This document shows, in pieces, positions 92 to 41,191 of a stretch of 43,538 nucleotides of DNA. The notes beneath the pieces were generated by a model that was not told the origin of the DNA, made no database searches, and worked only from the letters and a program-made list of their open reading frames with translations. The position numbers and the translations under genes are program-made. Source of the stretch: a virus. Its lineage: Duplodnaviria; Heunggongvirae; Uroviricota; Caudoviricetes. Positions within the stretch are counted from its first letter, which is position 1. Each line of letters starts with the position of its first letter. The stretch lies in IMG/VR virus record IMGVR_UViG_2687453364_000004; one strand, given 5' to 3'.

Positions 92-385
92 TCACCCACG
101 ATTAACCAACAGCCAGACCAGCAGACACGCCACCACCGGCACAGCAAAATCCATCAGGCTTGCCACATCCCAAGCTCGCGGATCAAAACCGCCCCACCAC
201 GGCATATTCATTCGCTTGCCATGCCCGAACATTTCAATCCAGCGATATTCTGCCTGGGTATGTTCACGCGCAATGAAGAACGTACAACCGGCTATCGCTC
301 CGTAAGCCCAGTTTCCGGTAAAAAGACCAACCAGTATCTGCGCAGCCACAGCACAAAGTGCATGAAGTAAGGGGCTTATATCCAT
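92..385 (-). CDS. hypothetical small membrane protein, last gene of the tail-fibre operon
   Basis: 97-aa ORF in track; ATG preceded by a GGAGG-type Shine-Dalgarno; two hydrophobic stretches (LLHALCAVAAQILVGLF, FAVPVVACLLVWLLV); no family recognised. Confidence 0.4.
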   Translation of the reverse strand: MDISPLLHALCAVAAQILVGLFTGNWAYGAIAGCTFFIAREHTQAEYRWIEMFGHGKRMNMPWWGGFDPRAWDVASLMDFAVPVVACLLVWLLVNRG

Positions 386-397
386 TATTTCCTCCTT

Positions 398-676
398 TCA
401 GCTCCATTCCCGAAGCGGTGTTTCCAGCTCCACGACATAATCAGAGAATACAGAAACATCAAACAAGTCATCAAGAATGCGAATGTTGACAAAATAACCG
501 TCATTCCGGACACAGACAGGTTCTCCCTCTTCTGTTACCCCTGTTTCTGTGTAGGTGAAACCAATTTCATCGACTAACAGTTTATTCTGGAGGTCTTCAT
601 CCTCCTCCCAGTCAAGAGATGACAGGAAGGATTTAAACTCTCTGTTACCAGGAAATTTCAAAGTTAAATCTTTCAT
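398..676 (-). CDS. hypothetical acidic protein, translationally coupled to stf (possible tail-fibre chaperone)
   Basis: 92-aa ORF; its ATG overlaps the stf stop (ATGA) and follows an AGGAGG Shine-Dalgarno; acidic composition; no similarity to lambda Tfa recognised. Confidence 0.4.
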   Translation of the reverse strand: MKDLTLKFPGNREFKSFLSSLDWEEDEDLQNKLLVDEIGFTYTETGVTEEGEPVCVRNDGYFVNIRILDDLFDVSVFSDYVVELETPLREWS

Positions 677-2694
677 ACTGCCTCCTTGATTTGCCTGTCA
701 TTTAATTCTTTAAACCAGACTCTGAAATTTCTGATGTGTCCAAACAAATGACGCGTTCCTGCTGCGGTCTGCCCACCAAACCGGTACGATGTTGCTGTAA
801 CTCCAAATATTTTACCATTAAGGTTTGTTGTATAATTACCATTGCATATTGCATTTACTGATAAATCAGATTTAGCTCTCACACCCACAATGAACCTTTC
901 TCCATCTGAGGCAATTTGTGGCTGAACCATTCCTACGTTGGCGCTTATCTTTCCTGTTGCAACAAACCCCAGCGATAAATAATTATCATCAATACTGTGC
1001 CCTCCAACATCAAATATCCTTGGCGCAACATTGGGCGGTGTACTCCAGTTCCTGCTTACTTCGCACAATACCGTAAAAGGCCGTGTTGACAGGTTATTCT
1101 GCGATGGGATAGTAACTACATCACTTGCGCGTGTTGTTGGCATTGTAGTTACAATAAATGACGATGCCGTATTGCCCAGTTCAATTTGCGGCGTCGTCAT
1201 GGTTAATGTTGAGTCATCATAGAATGTCTCATTACTTATTTTATTTGTCATATAAAAAGCACAGTTAACGGTATCAATGTCCGTATTAGCTGTATAAGTG
1301 GCCTCATAGTAGGTCCACTCGCCCTGTTGTTCAGCTTTGGCTGTTATAAGGGATGTATTACCGCTTACTGTTGCGATCCGGGTATCCAGATCAAGATAAG
1401 AGTCAGCAGAGAAGGTATCTGTTCCACCAATAATAACTGAAACTCTTAACCTGCATCGTGCTTTAGCGCCTTTAACCCGGCACGAAAAAGTGAAACATTC
1501 ACCACTTGCCAGCGGGAATCTGTCTGCTGCAACCACACCATGCACAGTATAGCCACCTGTTGTTCCCACTATACTTTCCGTGGGTGTCACCGTGGCATAA
1601 TTGAACCCCTGTTTATCAGTGCCAAATGTTTTATTCAGTGCGGAATGAACAGTCCATGAGTCTGGTTTATTTGAGTTCCTCAGATAATTTGTCCTCTGTC
1701 CTTCAATCAATAAGCCATCGCGCTCAAATCGCGGTTCGTCAACTTCAGCAAGCTTGAGTTGGCCGGACTTATTAATATACGTTGCTGTTGAAGCACGTTT
1801 AAACTTAACAATCTTGTCGCCTGGCATTGTTATTTCATCGTCACCAATAACTATCTTTTTATAAGATGGCGAAAAACCCGTAATCATATCCAGTGAATCG
1901 TTAAACGGTATCCACACATCAGGCAGCGGCGGCACTATATTCGCACAGGGCTCTGCAGTCACTTCCGCTGCGGCTTCTGCGCGGTCTGCCGCCTTTTCAG
2001 CTCGTGTCGCTGCCGACAGAGCCTCATCCTTTTTCTGCCCGGCCTTTGTTGCGTCTGCTGCGGCCTCCCGCGCTTTTGTGGTGGCGACTCCGGCATTTTC
2101 AGCGGCTGACTCTGCATTACGGCGGGAAGCCTCTTCACTGTCTGCGGAGGCTTCTTCTGACGCACGGGCATTTGTCTCTGAACGTTCTGCCGCTGTTGCT
2201 GCGTTTTGTGCGGCTGTTTTTGAAGAAGCTGCCGCTTTCGCGCTGTTACCTGCATTCGTCTCTGATGTTTTCGCCGCGTTCCTGGACGATGCCGCTGCTG
2301 TTTCTGATTTCTTTGCTGCCGCTGCGCTCTGAGAGGCGGCTTCAGCGTTGCGTGCCGCCTCTTCCACCATCTTTTCAAAACGATACAGTGCCTCCGGACA
2401 AACATCATCTTCTGTTGCAGCGCCCAGAAAATCATTCAATGTCCCCGGCTTAGAATCCTCATACACGGTGATGGTCCCGGCATGTGAAGGCGGAAAACCT
2501 TCAACCAGCAGGGCGACGCTGTACTGGCCATACTCAACATCCATGCTGTAACGTCCGGCTTCATCCGGATTTTCTGAGGCCACCGTGTTCACCACAACTG
2601 TGGTGCTGTTACGTTTTGCTTTGAGCTGAATGGTGCAGTTCTGTATCGGTTTTCCTGCACCGTCTTTCAGCACACCTGAAATCTGTACTGCCAT
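673..2694 (-). CDS. stf: side tail fibre protein (Stf-like)
   Basis: N-terminus MAVQISGVLKDGAGKPIQNCTIQLKA... matches the lambda Stf N-terminal domain from memory, followed by an Ala/Ser-rich helical repeat region and a divergent C-terminal domain; the track ORF starts at an upstream GTG (2700), the ATG at 2694 matches the lambda start. Confidence 0.85.
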   Translation of the reverse strand: MAVQISGVLKDGAGKPIQNCTIQLKAKRNSTTVVVNTVASENPDEAGRYSMDVEYGQYSVALLVEGFPPSHAGTITVYEDSKPGTLNDFLGAATEDDVCPEALYRFEKMVEEAARNAEAASQSAAAAKKSETAAASSRNAAKTSETNAGNSAKAAASSKTAAQNAATAAERSETNARASEEASADSEEASRRNAESAAENAGVATTKAREAAADATKAGQKKDEALSAATRAEKAADRAEAAAEVTAEPCANIVPPLPDVWIPFNDSLDMITGFSPSYKKIVIGDDEITMPGDKIVKFKRASTATYINKSGQLKLAEVDEPRFERDGLLIEGQRTNYLRNSNKPDSWTVHSALNKTFGTDKQGFNYATVTPTESIVGTTGGYTVHGVVAADRFPLASGECFTFSCRVKGAKARCRLRVSVIIGGTDTFSADSYLDLDTRIATVSGNTSLITAKAEQQGEWTYYEATYTANTDIDTVNCAFYMTNKISNETFYDDSTLTMTTPQIELGNTASSFIVTTMPTTRASDVVTIPSQNNLSTRPFTVLCEVSRNWSTPPNVAPRIFDVGGHSIDDNYLSLGFVATGKISANVGMVQPQIASDGERFIVGVRAKSDLSVNAICNGNYTTNLNGKIFGVTATSYRFGGQTAAGTRHLFGHIRNFRVWFKELNDRQIKEAV

Positions 2695-2752
2695 ATTCAC
2701 TCCACAAATAAAAAAGGCACCATTTCTGGTGCCCGAATTTGGGTTTTAAAAT

Positions 2753-5700
2753 TCAACTGATACTGATGCCGGCTGTTGATTTCTTCATCACGACAACAAG
2801 AAGGTCGCTGATACTGGTCGTTGGCGTCCAGTTATTTGCACCATATGAAGAAACATTGAAAGTCAGGGTGACATGGCCGTGTCCGGCAGGCATATCAATG
2901 ACTGATGAAAATACCCTGCTGACATCCGTCGCGGGTTGCTGAAAGATTTCCTGTCCGTTCTTCAGCACCTGCAGCTTACAGGTTGAATACCAGTATGACT
3001 GTTGGTTGTTGCTGTTGAAGTTTTCATGCTTACCACCGCGAAACAGAACGGGGGGGACGACTATCTGACGGTCAAAAGCCTGGTCATCGTACACAGTGAC
3101 CGTTATTGTACCGCTGGCATAACTGCCATTTCTCGGAAAGGCTTTTCCCACCGTTTTGACAATATCACCTTCAATCTGGTTAGCTGACAGTTTTCCCAGA
3201 ATCCGACAGTTCTGGTTAATCGTGACATTATTGAGCGTCCCGGAGTTCGCATTCACGTTACCGCTGATATCCGCATTTCTCGCAGAAAGTCGACCATCAG
3301 GTGTCAGTGAAAACGTTGGGGGATTGCCACCGCTGGTAATGGTGGGAGCCGTCAGATATTTCAGGAACACTTCGTTCATGAATATCTGATCGCCCTGCCC
3401 AACAAACATCGGCTTTGTATTGCCATTCGCAGGATTAATCATCGCAATCCTGTCCGCCGCCAGCAGCACCTGACTCTGCATACCGTCAGGGGTATTCTCA
3501 ATACCGGCACCAATACCCGCGATATAAAGGCGTCCGTCCTGCATCTGCTGCAGCTTCACAGCCCACATGCTGTTCAGGTTATTATTTGTATCAACCTGAA
3601 CCTTCTGTATCTGCTGGATCGCTGCACTCTGGTCTTCCAGTTTCTTATTGACGGTCTGCGTGATTTCATTGCTGACATCCGTAATGGACGTCCTGATTTC
3701 AGCCAGGTCAGGCGCAAGCTGACCGTTATCAATCTGCGTCCACAACTCCTGAGCCAGATGGGTTTTCCCTATCTCTCCTTTGAAAAAATCCAGATAGCCG
3801 GATGCATCATCACTCGGCTGGCCAACAGCCTCCACAAATGCCGATTTGCCAACGGTGTTCACACTGCGAATGTAAAAATAATAATCATGGCCCGGTTTGA
3901 TATTGATACTGGCGGCTATCCAGTACAGCGCCGTACCAAGATAACGCGCGCTGGCTTCAACCTGCCTGATATCCGCAATCCGCTTTTCCGAGAACCAGAA
4001 CTCAAACTGTACCGTCGGATCATAAACGGCAAGATGCGGCGTTGCGGTTATCTGAAAATAGCCCGGCGTCAGCTCAATCCGCGATGGCGCTGCCGGTGCG
4101 GCAATCCGGAACGATACCGACGCCGGATCCCCCTGCTGCCCCCACGCATTTACCGCCCGGACTGTCAGCCTGTAGTTCCCCAGCGCCAGTTGCCTGAAGC
4201 GGTATGTGGTTTCCGTCGTCCTGGCCGTGCTGACCAGCCGCTCACTGCCGTCATCCGCTGCCACGGTCAGGCGAAGCATAAAGCTCACCCCCTTCACCAC
4301 CTTCGGTGTGTCCCATCGCGCCAGCACCTGATATTCCCCGCTGTCTGCGGTGACTTCTGCGGTCAGGTGCTGCACCGCGGGCGGCGTGACACCATTCACC
4401 GTGCCACTCTGTTCGCCGTCAAAGTGCGCCCCGTTATCCACGATGGTCTCTTTTTCCGGCACATGCTGCACGGCGGTGATGGCATACGTGCCGTCGTCGT
4501 TTTCACGGATACTCACGCAGCGGAACAGTCGCTGGCGCAGCGTCGGCAGCTTCAGCCCCCATACGCTGTATTCAGCAACACCGTCAGGAACACGGCTCAC
4601 TTTCACCTTCACGCCGTCGGTGACGGACTGAACCTCCACGCTGACCGGATTGCCACTTCCGTCAACCAGGCTTATCAGCGTGGTACCGGAGGATGGCAGC
4701 GTGATTTCACGGTCGAGCGTCAGCGTCCGGGTCTGGCTGTTCACCGCCAGCACACGACCACCGGTGCTGATACCGGCATAGTCATCATCGCAGATTTCAA
4801 TGACATCCCCCGGTACATGGCGAAGCCCTTCAGCACCCACGCTGAAGTCCACGGTCTGCGTTTCCAGCAGCTCCGTTTTAATCAGCCACAGCCCGGCGCG
4901 GTGTGCCTGCCCCCGGCTGGTACAGCCAAAGGCATCCATCTTCGTGACGTTACGGCCGTAACGGGCAATGGCCTGCGTATCCTCCACGAGCTCTGTCGCC
5001 GTCTCCCAGCCGTTATCCGGGTCAATCCAGTTCACCTCAACGGCATTATGGCGGTCCTTCAGGGCGCTGAAGCTGTAGCGGAACGGCGCGCCATCATCCG
5101 GCATCACCACATTACTGCGGTTATAGGTCCACACCTTATCTGATGGTCGGTCCTGCACGAACGTCAGCGTCTGCCCGTTCCATACCGGCATACAGCGCAT
5201 CGCCGAGCAGAAATCACTGAGCACATCCCACGCCTTGCGCTGTGTGGTCAGGTACGCATTACAGGTAATGCGCGGCTCCGTGCCGCCAAAGCCGTCCGGC
5301 ACCGACTGGTCGCAGTACTGGCCGATGACATACAGCGCCCATTTATCCACATCCGCCGCACCAAGACGTTTCCCCATGCCGTAGCGCGGATGGGTCAGCA
5401 TATCCCACAGACACCAGGCCATGTTGTTGCTGTATGCCGGTTTTAACGTTCCGTCCCAGATACCGCTGTATTGCCGCGTCTGCGGGTTATAGTTCGACGG
5501 CACCTGCAGAATGCGCCCGCGAAGATGATAATTACGGCTCACCTGCTGGCTGCCGAACTGCTCCGAGTCCACCTGCACGCCAACCAGTGCCGTGTTCGGG
5601 TAGCACTGTTTCACATCGATGATTTCGGTGTATGACGACCAGAGCGTTTTGTTCAGCAGCTGGTCTGTGGTGCTGTCCGGCGTCATCCTGCGCATCCGGA

Positions 5701-6235
5701 TATTAAACGGGCGCGGCGGCAGGTTATCCACCACCACCGAGGCCAGATACTGCGAGGTGGTTTTGCCCTTAATGGTGATGTCTTTTTCCGTCACCCAGCC
5801 ACCGTTACGCTGTATCTGAACCAGCAGGCGAACTTCCGACGGATTCCTGTCTCCCTTTGAGGTGGTTTCCACCAGTGCCTGTACACCGAAGGTAAAGCGC
5901 AGACGGTCGATGTTTGCCGACGTGATGGTCCGGGTGATCGGCGTGTCATATTTCACTTCCGTACCCAGCACCGTCTCGGAGCCGGAGGATTCAAATCCCT
6001 CCGGCGGTGACTGCTCCTGCTCACCGGCCCGGAACACCACCGTGACGCCGGATATATTGGTATTCCCCTCACTGTCCAGCACCGGCGTACTGTTCAGCAG
6101 CACGCTTTTTAATCCATCCACCGGACCTTCAACCGGCCCTTCGCTGATGGCATCGATCACACTCAGCAGCTGCGTGGACTTCAGGTTGTCCTTCGCTTCG
6201 CGCGGGGTATGCCCCTTACTGCTGCCTTTACCCAT
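2753..6235 (-). CDS. J: central tail fibre / host specificity protein J
   Basis: 1160 aa; near-identical to lambda J over the N-terminal ~800 aa ([34 protein letters not shown]...), C-terminal receptor-binding part more divergent. Confidence 0.95.

Positions 6236-40043: not shown

Positions 40044-41191
<1,148 letters not shown>

What the first reader, a model, noticed from the sequence alone, without database searches (positions are those of the whole stretch)
92..676. Two small genes coupled to the tail-fibre gene: an acidic protein and a two-TM membrane protein
Both have strong Shine-Dalgarno sequences, and the first overlaps the stf stop, indicating co-expression. The regions downstream of tail fibres in lambdoid and P2-like phages are known hot spots for chaperones, superinfection-exclusion proteins and defence cargo. 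Neither protein resembles lambda Tfa.
Basis: inference. Interest (0 to 1): 0.4.

Follow-up and report, generated by a model that had tools for sequence, protein, structure and literature searches.

The report
Fibre partner and membrane cargo genes
Two small, real genes follow the side tail-fibre gene of this phage-21-like prophage: one always accompanies this type of fibre tip in many unrelated phages, and the other is a very common, uncharacterised membrane protein that temperate phages carry behind their receptor-binding genes.

Summary
On the minus strand, stf (673-2694/2700) is followed by a 92-aa acidic ORF (398-676; ATGA overlap with the stf stop, AAGGAGG Shine-Dalgarno (SD) site). A 97-aa hydrophobic ORF follows 12 nt later (92-385, also AAGGAGG). 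Both are under purifying selection, and neither matches Tfa or any Pfam, NCBIfam or PADLOC family. They are two separate things.

The acidic protein (PHROG 1361) belongs to the fibre's distal module. Every fibre ending in this lectin-like domain (…RHLFGHIRNFRIW…) is followed directly by a homologue: 78 of 78 IMG/VR loci, plus T1-like, T5-like, Dhillonvirus, Nonagvirus and rV5-like phages. It does not co-vary with the receptor-binding domain. In many lineages a short second fibre with a Peptidase_S74 domain follows it. It is most likely a stoichiometric assembly factor or joint for the fibre's C-terminal end.

The membrane protein (PHROG 1443) has three predicted helices and an invariant REHxQAEYRW…PWWGGFD loop. 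It is independent cargo, found behind many unrelated receptor-binding genes in prophages of alpha-, beta-, gamma- and deltaproteobacteria. Stand-alone chromosomal copies exist, and 35% of complete E. coli genomes carry it. Superinfection exclusion or envelope modification is the best guess and is untested. Interest is moderate.

The parts
673..2700 (-). Side tail fibre gene stf. The mechanical ORF starts at GTG 2700; relatives annotate the ATG at 2694. It has an N-terminal prophage tail-fibre domain, an Ala-rich stalk, and a distal head-spike-fibre / lectin-like domain ending …RHLFGHIRNFRVWFKELNDRQIKEAV.
   Evidence: Pfam phage_tail_N 2.8e-67; NCBIfam GTA_spike_fiber 7.5e-18 over residues 331-525; phrog_1419 2e-294. 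Annotated as side tail fiber in phage 21. RefSeq names it 'phage head spike fiber domain-containing protein'. The equivalent C-terminal domain of IrisVonRoten Gp22 is described as galectin-like (PMC11990801).
398..676 (-). 92-aa acidic protein (PHROG 1361), the constant companion of this fibre distal domain. The predicted fold is strand, two helices, then a long beta-hairpin.
   Evidence: phrog_1361 1.6e-39. AF2 pLDDT 89.5. A homologue follows the fibre stop in all 77 IMG/VR loci where both genes could be read, in all 78 loci with enough downstream sequence, and in 10 of 10 annotated phages from six lineages. dN/dS 0.1-0.4.
673..676 (-). ATGA overlap: the stf stop TGA (675-673) overlaps the acidic-gene start ATG (676-674). 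This is a translational-coupling signature.
   Evidence: Read directly from the sequence. The same 4-nt overlap is in all 77 IMG/VR loci where both genes could be read. Several virulent phages have a 1-nt overlap instead.
681..687 (-). Shine-Dalgarno AAGGAGG for the acidic gene, 4 nt before its ATG, lying inside the end of stf.
   Evidence: Sequence.
92..385 (-). 97-aa integral membrane protein (PHROG 1443). It has three predicted helices (4-23, 26-53, 74-96) and an invariant loop R40 E41 H42 x Q44 A45 E46 Y47 R48 W49 … P62 W W G G F D68.
   Evidence: phrog_1443 2.4e-58. AF2 pLDDT 92.8. 577 clusters of homologues. Invariant columns from a 74-sequence alignment. dN/dS 0-0.18.
391..397 (-). Shine-Dalgarno AAGGAGG for the membrane gene. 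It lies in the 12-nt spacer, directly after the acidic gene's TGA (400-398).
   Evidence: Sequence. Annotated as an RBS in phage 21.
2715..2734 (-). Terminator-like hairpin with a T-run between J and stf. It marks the upstream edge of the stf / acidic / membrane transcription block, which is read through under Q antitermination (inferred).
   Evidence: Consensus scan. A terminator is annotated at the same place in phage 21.

Best explanation
The two ORFs are separate modules that share one late transcript with stf.

(1) The 92-aa acidic protein belongs to the fibre's distal cassette.
- It is made in step with the fibre through the ATGA overlap.
- I infer that it binds the conserved C-terminal end of the lectin-like distal domain (…RHLFGHIRNFRIW…LTDxQ…), not the variable sugar-binding surface.
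- I infer that it supplies in trans what other fibres get from a built-in C-terminal chaperone domain (Peptidase_S74): it would nucleate or stabilise the fibre's C-terminal end.
- In lineages with a short second fibre downstream, it probably also forms or prepares the joint where that fibre's conserved N-terminal peptide docks. This phage has no second fibre, so only the assembly or capping role would apply here.

(2) The 97-aa protein is autonomous cargo that temperate phages place at the very end of their receptor-binding gene cluster.
- It inserts in the cytoplasmic membrane.
- The positive-inside rule puts its invariant charged loop (REHxQAEYRW…PWWGGFD) on the cytoplasmic face.
- It most likely acts on a conserved envelope or membrane component, so that lysogens or infected cells resist entry of other phages or carry an altered envelope.

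Shown: gene reality, coupling signals, linkage patterns, distribution, predicted folds. Inferred: binding partners, chaperone or joint activity, exclusion.
For: Acidic protein:
- It always sits directly after this fibre domain. This held in all 77 IMG/VR loci found through the small protein where both genes could be read. It held in all 78 loci found through the fibre motif that had enough downstream sequence.
- It also held in lambdoid, T1-like, T5-like, Dhillonvirus, Nonagvirus and rV5-like phages and in remote metagenomic members.
- A natural swap supports the chaperone analogy. rV5 gp41 and LL12 gp041 are 89.5% identical up to about residue 1049. After that, rV5 has an S74-type C-terminus (reported similarity to the K1F endosialidase, PMC3606486) and no small ORF. 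LL12 has the lectin-like C-terminus plus the small ORF.
- The gene stays intact and under purifying selection in lineages without a second fibre.
- The second fibres carry Peptidase_S74 and a shared N-terminal peptide M[AV]TxTxIPxDITxLK. In the T5-like query tested, the first 26 residues matched only in records with this gene arrangement.
- BASEL authors model the distal fibre as attached to the proximal, galectin-like-tipped fibre (PMC11990801).

Membrane protein:
- It lies directly behind S74 fibres, tailspikes, a Laminin_G fibre, DUF4376 proteins, a J-like gene, and a probable DGR (diversity-generating retroelement) target gene upstream of bAvd. It also follows the tail-fibre assembly gene of phiHAP-1.
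- It was absent from the eight virulent-phage loci examined that carry the same fibre cassette.
- 1903 of 5426 complete E. coli genomes carry it, with up to 7 places per genome.
- Identity is about 60% between E. coli and Comamonas or Aeromonas, with 19 invariant columns.
- The 40-74 loop averages 5.6 K+R, against 0.7 or fewer on the other side.
Against: - No experiment or complex model shows that the acidic protein binds the fibre.
- It does not co-vary with the receptor-binding domain as Tfa- or gp38-type chaperones do.
- Its fold has no solved relative, so 'chaperone' rests on genomic logic only.
- Whether it is in the virion is unknown. The one proteome found, of phage SIA3lw, reports only gel bands of about 19-132 kDa (PMC12752171).
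- For the membrane protein, no promoter-like site was found that would express it in a lysogen, and it is not a classic moron.
- Stand-alone chromosomal copies exist in Aeromonas and sphingomonads. Partial copies exist in large Aeromonas phages. Both point to a general cellular function rather than dedicated exclusion.
- There is no PADLOC or Pfam hit.
Confidence: 0.5

Rival explanations
1. The acidic protein is mainly a structural virion subunit. It would be a small joint or cap on the tip of the proximal fibre that docks a second, short S74 fibre, giving a branched or serial fibre. In this phage, which lacks the second fibre, it would be just a cap or a retained docking site.
For: - It sits between two fibre genes in T1-like, T5-like and Nonagvirus phages and in some Escherichia prophages.
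- The second fibres share an N-terminal peptide. For the T5-like query tested, that peptide matched only in records with this arrangement.
- Translational coupling suggests stoichiometric amounts.
- The distal fibre is modelled as attached to the proximal one (PMC11990801).
Against: - The protein is equally conserved where no second fibre exists: this window, phage 21, rolling and LL12.
- Its identity tracks the second fibre's N-terminus only weakly (Spearman 0.43).
- No virion proteomics detects it.
Confidence: 0.3
2. The membrane protein is a small membrane enzyme or housekeeping factor, for example acting on a lipid or lipid-linked envelope intermediate. Phages would have borrowed it, so it causes lysogenic conversion of the envelope rather than classical exclusion.
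For: - The invariant polar residues H8, Q16, R40, E41, Q44, E46, Y47 and R48 (with H42, D68 and D79 nearly invariant) look like an active or binding site.
- There are stand-alone chromosomal copies at a conserved Aeromonas locus, and others next to ligA or cyclopropane-fatty-acid synthase genes in sphingomonads.
- Conservation across four proteobacterial classes is unusually high for phage cargo.
Against: - There is no similarity to any known enzyme family or structure.
- The chromosomal neighbourhoods share no theme.
- At 97 aa it is very small for an enzyme.
Confidence: 0.3
3. The membrane protein serves the phage's own lytic cycle. It might protect progeny from being wasted on lysing cells or debris, or tune late-stage membrane events. 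It would be expressed only late, together with the fibres.
For: - It is co-transcribed with late tail genes, with no promoter of its own predicted.
- Its start overlaps the end of the tail-fibre assembly gene by 4 nt in phiHAP-1.
- The precedent is RBP-adjacent Llp in T5 and Cor in T1/phi80 (general knowledge; Cor is mentioned in PMC13164509).
Against: - Virulent phages with the same fibre cassette lack it.
- Its sequence stays constant while the neighbouring receptor-binding proteins are very diverse, so it cannot be receptor-specific.
- It has chromosomal copies.
Confidence: 0.15
4. Both ORFs are ordinary Tfa-type tail-fibre chaperone fragments, or non-coding chance ORFs.
For: They occupy the position downstream of stf where lambda has tfa.
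Against: - There is no Caudo_TAP/Tfa, DUF4376 or any other Pfam/NCBIfam hit.
- Homologues are full length and conserved, with dN/dS well below 1.
- AF2 gives confident, distinct folds.
Confidence: 0.02

Closest known systems
Lambda Tfa / T4 gp38 / Mu U / P2 G tail-fibre assembly chaperones (Caudo_TAP and relatives)
   Same: The gene lies immediately downstream of the fibre gene, is co-expressed with it, and is tied to the fibre's distal module.
   Different: There is no sequence or fold similarity. It is half the size. It does not co-vary with the receptor-binding domain, whereas Tfa- and gp38-type chaperones travel with their cognate tip (general knowledge).
C-terminal intramolecular chaperone of endosialidase-type fibres (Peptidase_S74, e.g. 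K1F endosialidase, T5 pb1)
   Same: It occupies the functionally equivalent place at the C-terminal end of the fibre. In rV5 versus LL12 the S74 C-terminus is replaced by the lectin-like domain plus the small ORF.
   Different: It is a separate polypeptide, not a cleaved domain. There is no homology. No protease motif was tested.
Two-protein lateral fibres of T5-like phages (DT57C LtfA/LtfB; IrisVonRoten Gp22/Gp24 'T-shaped' fibre)
   Same: The fibre module is the same. The Stf here corresponds to the proximal fibre with a galectin-like C-terminal domain (PMC11990801). The small ORF is bas32_0023, between the two fibre genes.
   Different: This phage has no second fibre. The published descriptions do not assign a role to the small protein.
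RBP-adjacent exclusion genes: Cor (T1/phi80/N15), Llp (T5), P2 fun(Z), HK97 gp15
   Same: It is a small envelope protein gene placed next to receptor-binding or tail genes. In phiHAP-1 the homologue sits after the fibre assembly gene, in the P2 fun(Z)-like slot.
   Different: There is no homology. Cor and Llp are lipoproteins that block one specific receptor, whereas this protein is invariant behind very different RBPs. It also has cellular stand-alone copies.
Small hydrophobic O-antigen-conversion proteins next to tailspike genes (epsilon15 gp22/gp28, D3 Iap)
   Same: They are small membrane proteins encoded by temperate phages near glycan-binding tail proteins.
   Different: This is a resemblance recalled from general knowledge only. 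The family also occurs in sphingomonads, which lack classical LPS.

Membership tests
Lambda Tfa-type tail fibre assembly proteins (Pfam Caudo_TAP and relatives, DUF4376) | Profile match to the family HMM | tested here: not met
   Neither ORF gave a Pfam hit to these families at E <= 1. NCBIfam gave none.
Lambda Tfa-type tail fibre assembly proteins | Chaperone co-varies with the fibre's receptor-binding tip | tested here: not met
   Window versus the phage-21 class: small protein 93%, fibre C-terminal 410 aa 41%. Window versus JenP2: 52% and 72%. Spearman about 0.5 over 78 pairs.
PHROG 1361 (unknown function) | Full-length profile match | tested here: met
   1.6e-39, residues 1-91 of 92. The LL12 and SelmaRatti small ORFs also match.
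PHROG 1443 (unknown function) | Full-length profile match | tested here: met
   2.4e-58, residues 1-96 of 97.
Peptidase_S74 intramolecular-chaperone fibres | S74 domain at the fibre C-terminus | tested here: not met
   The window Stf has no S74 hit. The S74 domain is found instead in the second fibres of other phages.
Moron (independent transcription unit in a late operon) | Own promoter upstream and terminator downstream | tested here: not met
   No promoter-like site on the minus strand lies within 1-1500 and no terminator lies after the membrane gene. The 3' spacer folds no better than shuffles, z = -1.03. These are simple consensus scans only, so the result is weak.
Known anti-phage defence / exclusion proteins (PADLOC-DB, Pfam Imm/Sie families) | Profile match | tested here: not met
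   0 PADLOC families at E <= 1. No Pfam hit.
Superinfection exclusion proteins (functional class) | Expression blocks infection by other phages at adsorption or DNA entry | not testable with these tools
   This needs plating, adsorption and entry assays.
Class I holins | About 100 aa, three TMDs, charged C-terminal tail, location in the lysis cassette | tested here: not met
   There are three helices, but the C-terminal tail is only about 3 residues with 0.5 K+R. The gene lies at the fibre cluster, about 23 kb from the ORF cluster near Q that I take to be the lysis genes (about 23.6-24.8 kb; position inferred, not annotated here). Chromosomal copies exist.
Virion structural protein | Detected in purified particles | not tested
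   Only one relevant proteome was found, for SIA3lw. It lists the fibre and the S74 protein but reports only gel bands of about 19-132 kDa (PMC12752171).

The most novel reading that the evidence does not exclude
Both genes found new functional families.

The acidic protein would be a previously unrecognised, trans-acting assembly factor and docking joint. All lectin-tipped lateral fibres of coliphages (lambdoid, T1-, T5- and rV5-like) would need it, which makes it a required part for engineering such fibres.

The membrane protein would be a new, very widespread inner-membrane effector with an enzyme-like invariant site. It would be carried behind receptor-binding genes by temperate phages across Proteobacteria and would block phage entry or remodel the envelope through a conserved host target.
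Probability: 0.3. Interest if true: 0.7.

Novelty: new variant of a known kind. Interest (0 to 1): 0.5.

Why it matters
Lectin-tipped lateral fibres decide which O-antigen types many coliphages can cross. They are also swapped between phages in host-range engineering. If the 92-aa protein is needed to build or join these fibres, it must travel with the fibre module in any chimera. That would also explain an ORF annotated as 'hypothetical' or 'tail fiber protein' in at least 143 deposited phage genomes.

The membrane protein is present in about a third of complete E. coli genomes, often in several copies, and in prophages from alpha- to deltaproteobacteria. Yet it has no Pfam family and no known role. 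It is a cheap, well-defined candidate for a new exclusion or conversion function, and its invariant residues can be mutated directly.

Tried and rejected
- **Profile libraries.** Pfam, NCBIfam and PADLOC gave nothing for either small protein.
- **Structure searches.** Foldseek against the PDB gave no significant match: best E 0.04 with TM about 0.4 for the acidic protein, and E > 3 for the membrane protein. BFVD returned only uncharacterised phage proteins. HMM searches against PDB sequences gave nothing for the membrane protein and only chance-level hits (E >= 0.3) for the acidic protein. The fibre distal domain likewise had no significant match.
- **PKD hits.** The exhaustive HMM search with the acidic family hit giant planctomycete proteins made of PKD-like repeats. 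I rejected these as compositional matches of the 'GxYxVxVxVxDDDG' hairpin to the acidic beta-hairpin, because the predicted fold contains helices and is not a PKD sandwich.
- **Strict chaperone co-variation.** Tested and not found.
- **Second fibre elsewhere in the window.** A motif search of all six frames found none.
- **Promoter or terminator for the membrane gene.** None found.
- **rV5 virion proteomics.** Not informative, because rV5 itself carries the S74 variant without the small ORF.
- **Tai/Ati tail-assembly-interference systems.** Considered for the locus, but they sit upstream of the packaging module and are unrelated.
- **Literature.** Searches on phage 21, DT57C LtfA/LtfB, BASEL, chimeric Stf and exclusion found no functional statement about either protein.
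- **Neighbourhoods of chromosomal copies.** No common functional theme.

Full report
**Setting.** The window is a phage-21-like lambdoid genome (Jouyvirus) read in reverse. Positions 1-2760 are 100% identical to Lambda_2E9, 1H12 and several 'Lambda_ev' isolates. About two thirds of that stretch is 94% identical to phage 21. On the minus strand the order is J (2753-6235), a terminator-like hairpin (2734-2715), stf (673-2694/2700), a 92-aa ORF (398-676) and a 97-aa ORF (92-385). In relatives the convergent sitABCD operon ends exactly where the window begins. Phage 21 annotates the two small genes as CPT_21_23 'hypothetical protein' and CPT_21_24 'putative membrane protein'.

**Observation check.**
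- The acidic gene's ATG (676-674) overlaps the stf TGA (675-673) as ATGA, and AAGGAGG lies 4 nt upstream.
- The membrane gene starts 12 nt after the acidic gene's stop, again behind AAGGAGG.
- The acidic protein has pI 4.05, with 22 D+E against 8 K+R.
- Both genes match PHROG families of unknown function full length: 1361 and 1443.
- Both are under purifying selection, with dN/dS of 0.1-0.4 and 0-0.18.
- No promoter-like site lies near them on the minus strand. The 91-nt 3' spacer does not fold better than shuffles. They are therefore most simply part of the stf late transcript.
AlphaFold2 (pLDDT 92.8) predicts three helices: 4-23, 26-53 and 74-96.

**The acidic protein belongs to the fibre's distal cassette.** The k-mer-limited protein search found it only in Escherichia and Shigella. 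tblastn against phage genomes found full-length homologues (40-55% identity) in 143 records. These include virulent T1-like, T5-like, Dhillonvirus and Nonagvirus phages, nearly always abutting a tail-fibre CDS.

The Stf distal 411 aa occurs in 217 phage records. The difference in counts reflects search sensitivity. An HMM of the small protein finds the 88-aa ORF after the SelmaRatti fibre (1.8e-13) and the 110-aa ORF after the fibre of the rV5-like myovirus LL12 (8e-17). Both also match phrog_1361.

The linkage held from both directions:
- Starting from the small protein, all 77 IMG/VR loci where both genes could be read have a fibre ORF ending 4 nt into it.
- Starting from the fibre's conserved C-terminal motif, all 78 loci with enough downstream sequence have the small ORF directly after the stop.
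- Remote metagenomic members (profile E 1e-8 to 1e-11) show the same arrangement. Their fibres end …RHLFGHIKNFRIW… or …YHLRNFRIWHRVLTEDQ….

A natural swap makes the same point. rV5 gp41 and LL12 gp041 are 89.5% identical up to about residue 1049. From there rV5 continues with an endosialidase-chaperone-type C-terminus (as reported in PMC3606486) and has no small ORF. LL12 continues with the lectin-like domain followed by the small ORF.

**What the acidic protein is not.**
- It is not Tfa-like, with no Pfam or NCBIfam hit.
- Its confident predicted fold is strand 2-8, helices 11-20 and 27-32, then a long hairpin 33-47/53-67 (pLDDT 89.5). This fold has no solved relative. Among viral models it matches only uncharacterised phage proteins.
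- It does not co-vary with the receptor-binding domain. Against the phage-21 class it is 93% identical while the fibre's last 410 aa are 41% identical. Against JenP2 the figures are 52% and 72%.
- So the small protein follows the phage lineage while the sugar-binding part is exchanged horizontally. This argues for contact with the conserved frame or C-terminal motif of the domain, not with its specificity surface.

**A second fibre often follows.** In tonn, KarlJaspers, JenP2, EC104, IrisVonRoten and SelmaRatti, the gene after the small ORF is a short fibre with a Peptidase_S74 domain, 224-582 aa long. All begin with M[AV]TxTxIPxDITxLK.

With the IrisVonRoten fibre as query, the first 26 residues matched only in records with this arrangement. 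Residues 27-100 also occur inside single-chain fibres such as DT571/2 LtfA.

The 2025 BASEL paper models IrisVonRoten's distal 'T-shaped' fibre Gp24 as attached to the proximal fibre Gp22. Its C-terminal 'galectin-like' domain is the homologue of the Stf distal domain here. The paper assigns no role to the 92-aa Gp23 (PMC11990801).

Some Escherichia prophages have the full order Stf, small protein, S74 fibre, membrane protein (L092, L094). This window has no second fibre, yet the small gene is intact and constrained.

My reading is that the small protein is a stoichiometric partner of the fibre's C-terminal end. It would be an assembly factor supplied in trans, analogous to the S74 domain supplied in cis. 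Where a second fibre exists, it may also make the joint. The purely structural 'joint or cap' reading is the main rival.

**The membrane protein is independent cargo.** It has 577 homologue clusters at 57-100% identity, including Comamonas, Aeromonas, Salmonella, Leclercia and Citrobacter. A genome scan extends the family to sphingomonads, Devosia, Chelativorans, Halomonas and Desulfovibrio.

A 74-sequence alignment has 19 invariant columns: D2, H8, Q16, G29, R40, E41, Q44, A45, E46, Y47, R48, W49, G56, R58, P62, G65, G66, W72 and P83. No Pfam, NCBIfam, PADLOC, PDB-sequence or PDB-fold relative exists.

Genes immediately upstream of it include:
- S74 fibres in Escherichia and Desulfovibrio, a tailspike in Leclercia, and a Laminin_G_3 fibre with an ATGA overlap in Chelativorans;
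- DUF4376 proteins in Pantoea and Halomonas;
- a small ORF after a 2520-aa J-like protein in Comamonas;
- the tail-fibre assembly gene of Halomonas phage phiHAP-1;
- a probable DGR target gene, with bAvd directly downstream, in Comamonas and Pigmentiphaga.

The eight virulent-phage loci examined that carry the same fibre cassette lack it.

There are also stand-alone chromosomal copies. Several Aeromonas species share a conserved locus. Sphingomonads have copies after ligA or before cfa.

In complete E. coli genomes, 1903 of 5426 carry a match. Of these, 1127 carry both genes, and the rest often have the membrane gene behind a different fibre. A genome can have up to 7 places.

By the positive-inside rule, the conserved 40-74 loop (5.6 K+R on average) and the N-terminus face the cytoplasm, and the C-terminus faces out.

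**Mechanism for the membrane protein.** It stays constant behind very different receptor-binding proteins, so it cannot be a receptor-specific blocker of the Cor or Llp kind. Its restriction to temperate contexts and its position at the end of the RBP cluster fit prophage cargo acting at the cytoplasmic membrane. That cargo could cause superinfection exclusion at DNA entry or modify a conserved envelope pathway.

The enzyme-like invariant residues and the cellular copies keep 'small membrane enzyme or housekeeping factor borrowed by phages' as a strong rival. The absence of a promoter of its own keeps 'late lytic function' alive. None of these can be decided with the tools available.

**Verdict.** Both proteins belong to uncharacterised families. 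The kinds of function proposed, fibre accessory and RBP-adjacent membrane cargo, are known, so I rate this a new variant of a known kind. Interest is moderate at 0.5. It rests on the exceptionless fibre/small-protein linkage across six phage lineages and on the breadth and conservation of the membrane family.

Noticed in passing
window 28772-33034 (-) and 27689-28729 (+): A 1421-aa inverse autotransporter (IAT_beta 5.6e-101, with Invasin_D3 and Big_1 repeats; intimin/invasin family) and a divergent 347-aa BD-FAE/alpha-beta-hydrolase esterase sit between the replication genes O/P and Q. They look like large virulence-type cargo inside the prophage.
   Followed up: partly
window 40047-40862 (-): A 272-aa ORF with rve integrase-core domains, of the kind found in IS transposases, lies in the early-left region near the RecT/YqaJ recombination genes.
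   Followed up: no
window 1 (left edge); L001 and L002: In phage 21 and Lambda_2E9 the convergent sitABCD iron/manganese transporter operon ends exactly one base before window position 1. The membrane gene and sitD therefore face each other across a 91-nt spacer with no clear terminator.
   Followed up: partly
L006:5292-5966, L088:4289-5335, L005:5289-7013, L161:4060-5808, L092:3918-4958, L094:4286-4990: Short second fibres with a Peptidase_S74 domain all start with a shared peptide M[AV]TxTxIPxDITxLK. With the IrisVonRoten fibre as query, the first 26 residues matched only in records where the gene follows the small acidic ORF. This is a likely docking peptide.
   Followed up: partly
L164 (rV5 gp41) versus L162 (LL12 gp041): Two near-identical myovirus fibres (89.5% identity up to about residue 1049) differ by a cassette swap at the tip. 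One has an S74-type C-terminus. The other has a lectin-like domain plus the 110-aa small ORF.
   Followed up: yes
L119:4947-5300 and L121:4947-5300: In Comamonas nitrativorans and Pigmentiphaga humi, the membrane-protein homologue sits 10 nt after a 370-383-aa ORF with no Pfam hit and 4 nt before a bAvd gene. That places it inside what looks like a diversity-generating retroelement cassette next to its target gene.
   Followed up: no
L090 (phage 4A7) 2917-5333: Three transposase ORFs (an IS element) are inserted between the stf remnant and the acidic gene. The acidic and membrane genes stay intact.
   Followed up: no
L166 (phage HC6) 3465-3620: An unannotated 51-aa remnant of the membrane-protein family lies directly after an 859-aa tailspike (Tail_spike_N plus Peptidase_S74) in HC6-like phages.
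   Followed up: partly
P0184, P0192, P0232, P0243: The profile of the acidic family hits multi-repeat PKD-like giant proteins (1400-2700 aa) at E down to 2e-12, through a 'YxVxVxVxDDDG' hairpin. I judged this compositional, but it was not examined structurally.
   Followed up: partly
L140:1527-2843 and L145:5328-6635: In two sphingomonad-type MAGs the chromosomal membrane-protein homologue is followed within 3-32 nt by a cyclopropane-fatty-acyl-phospholipid synthase gene. This is a faint hint of a lipid-related role.
   Followed up: no
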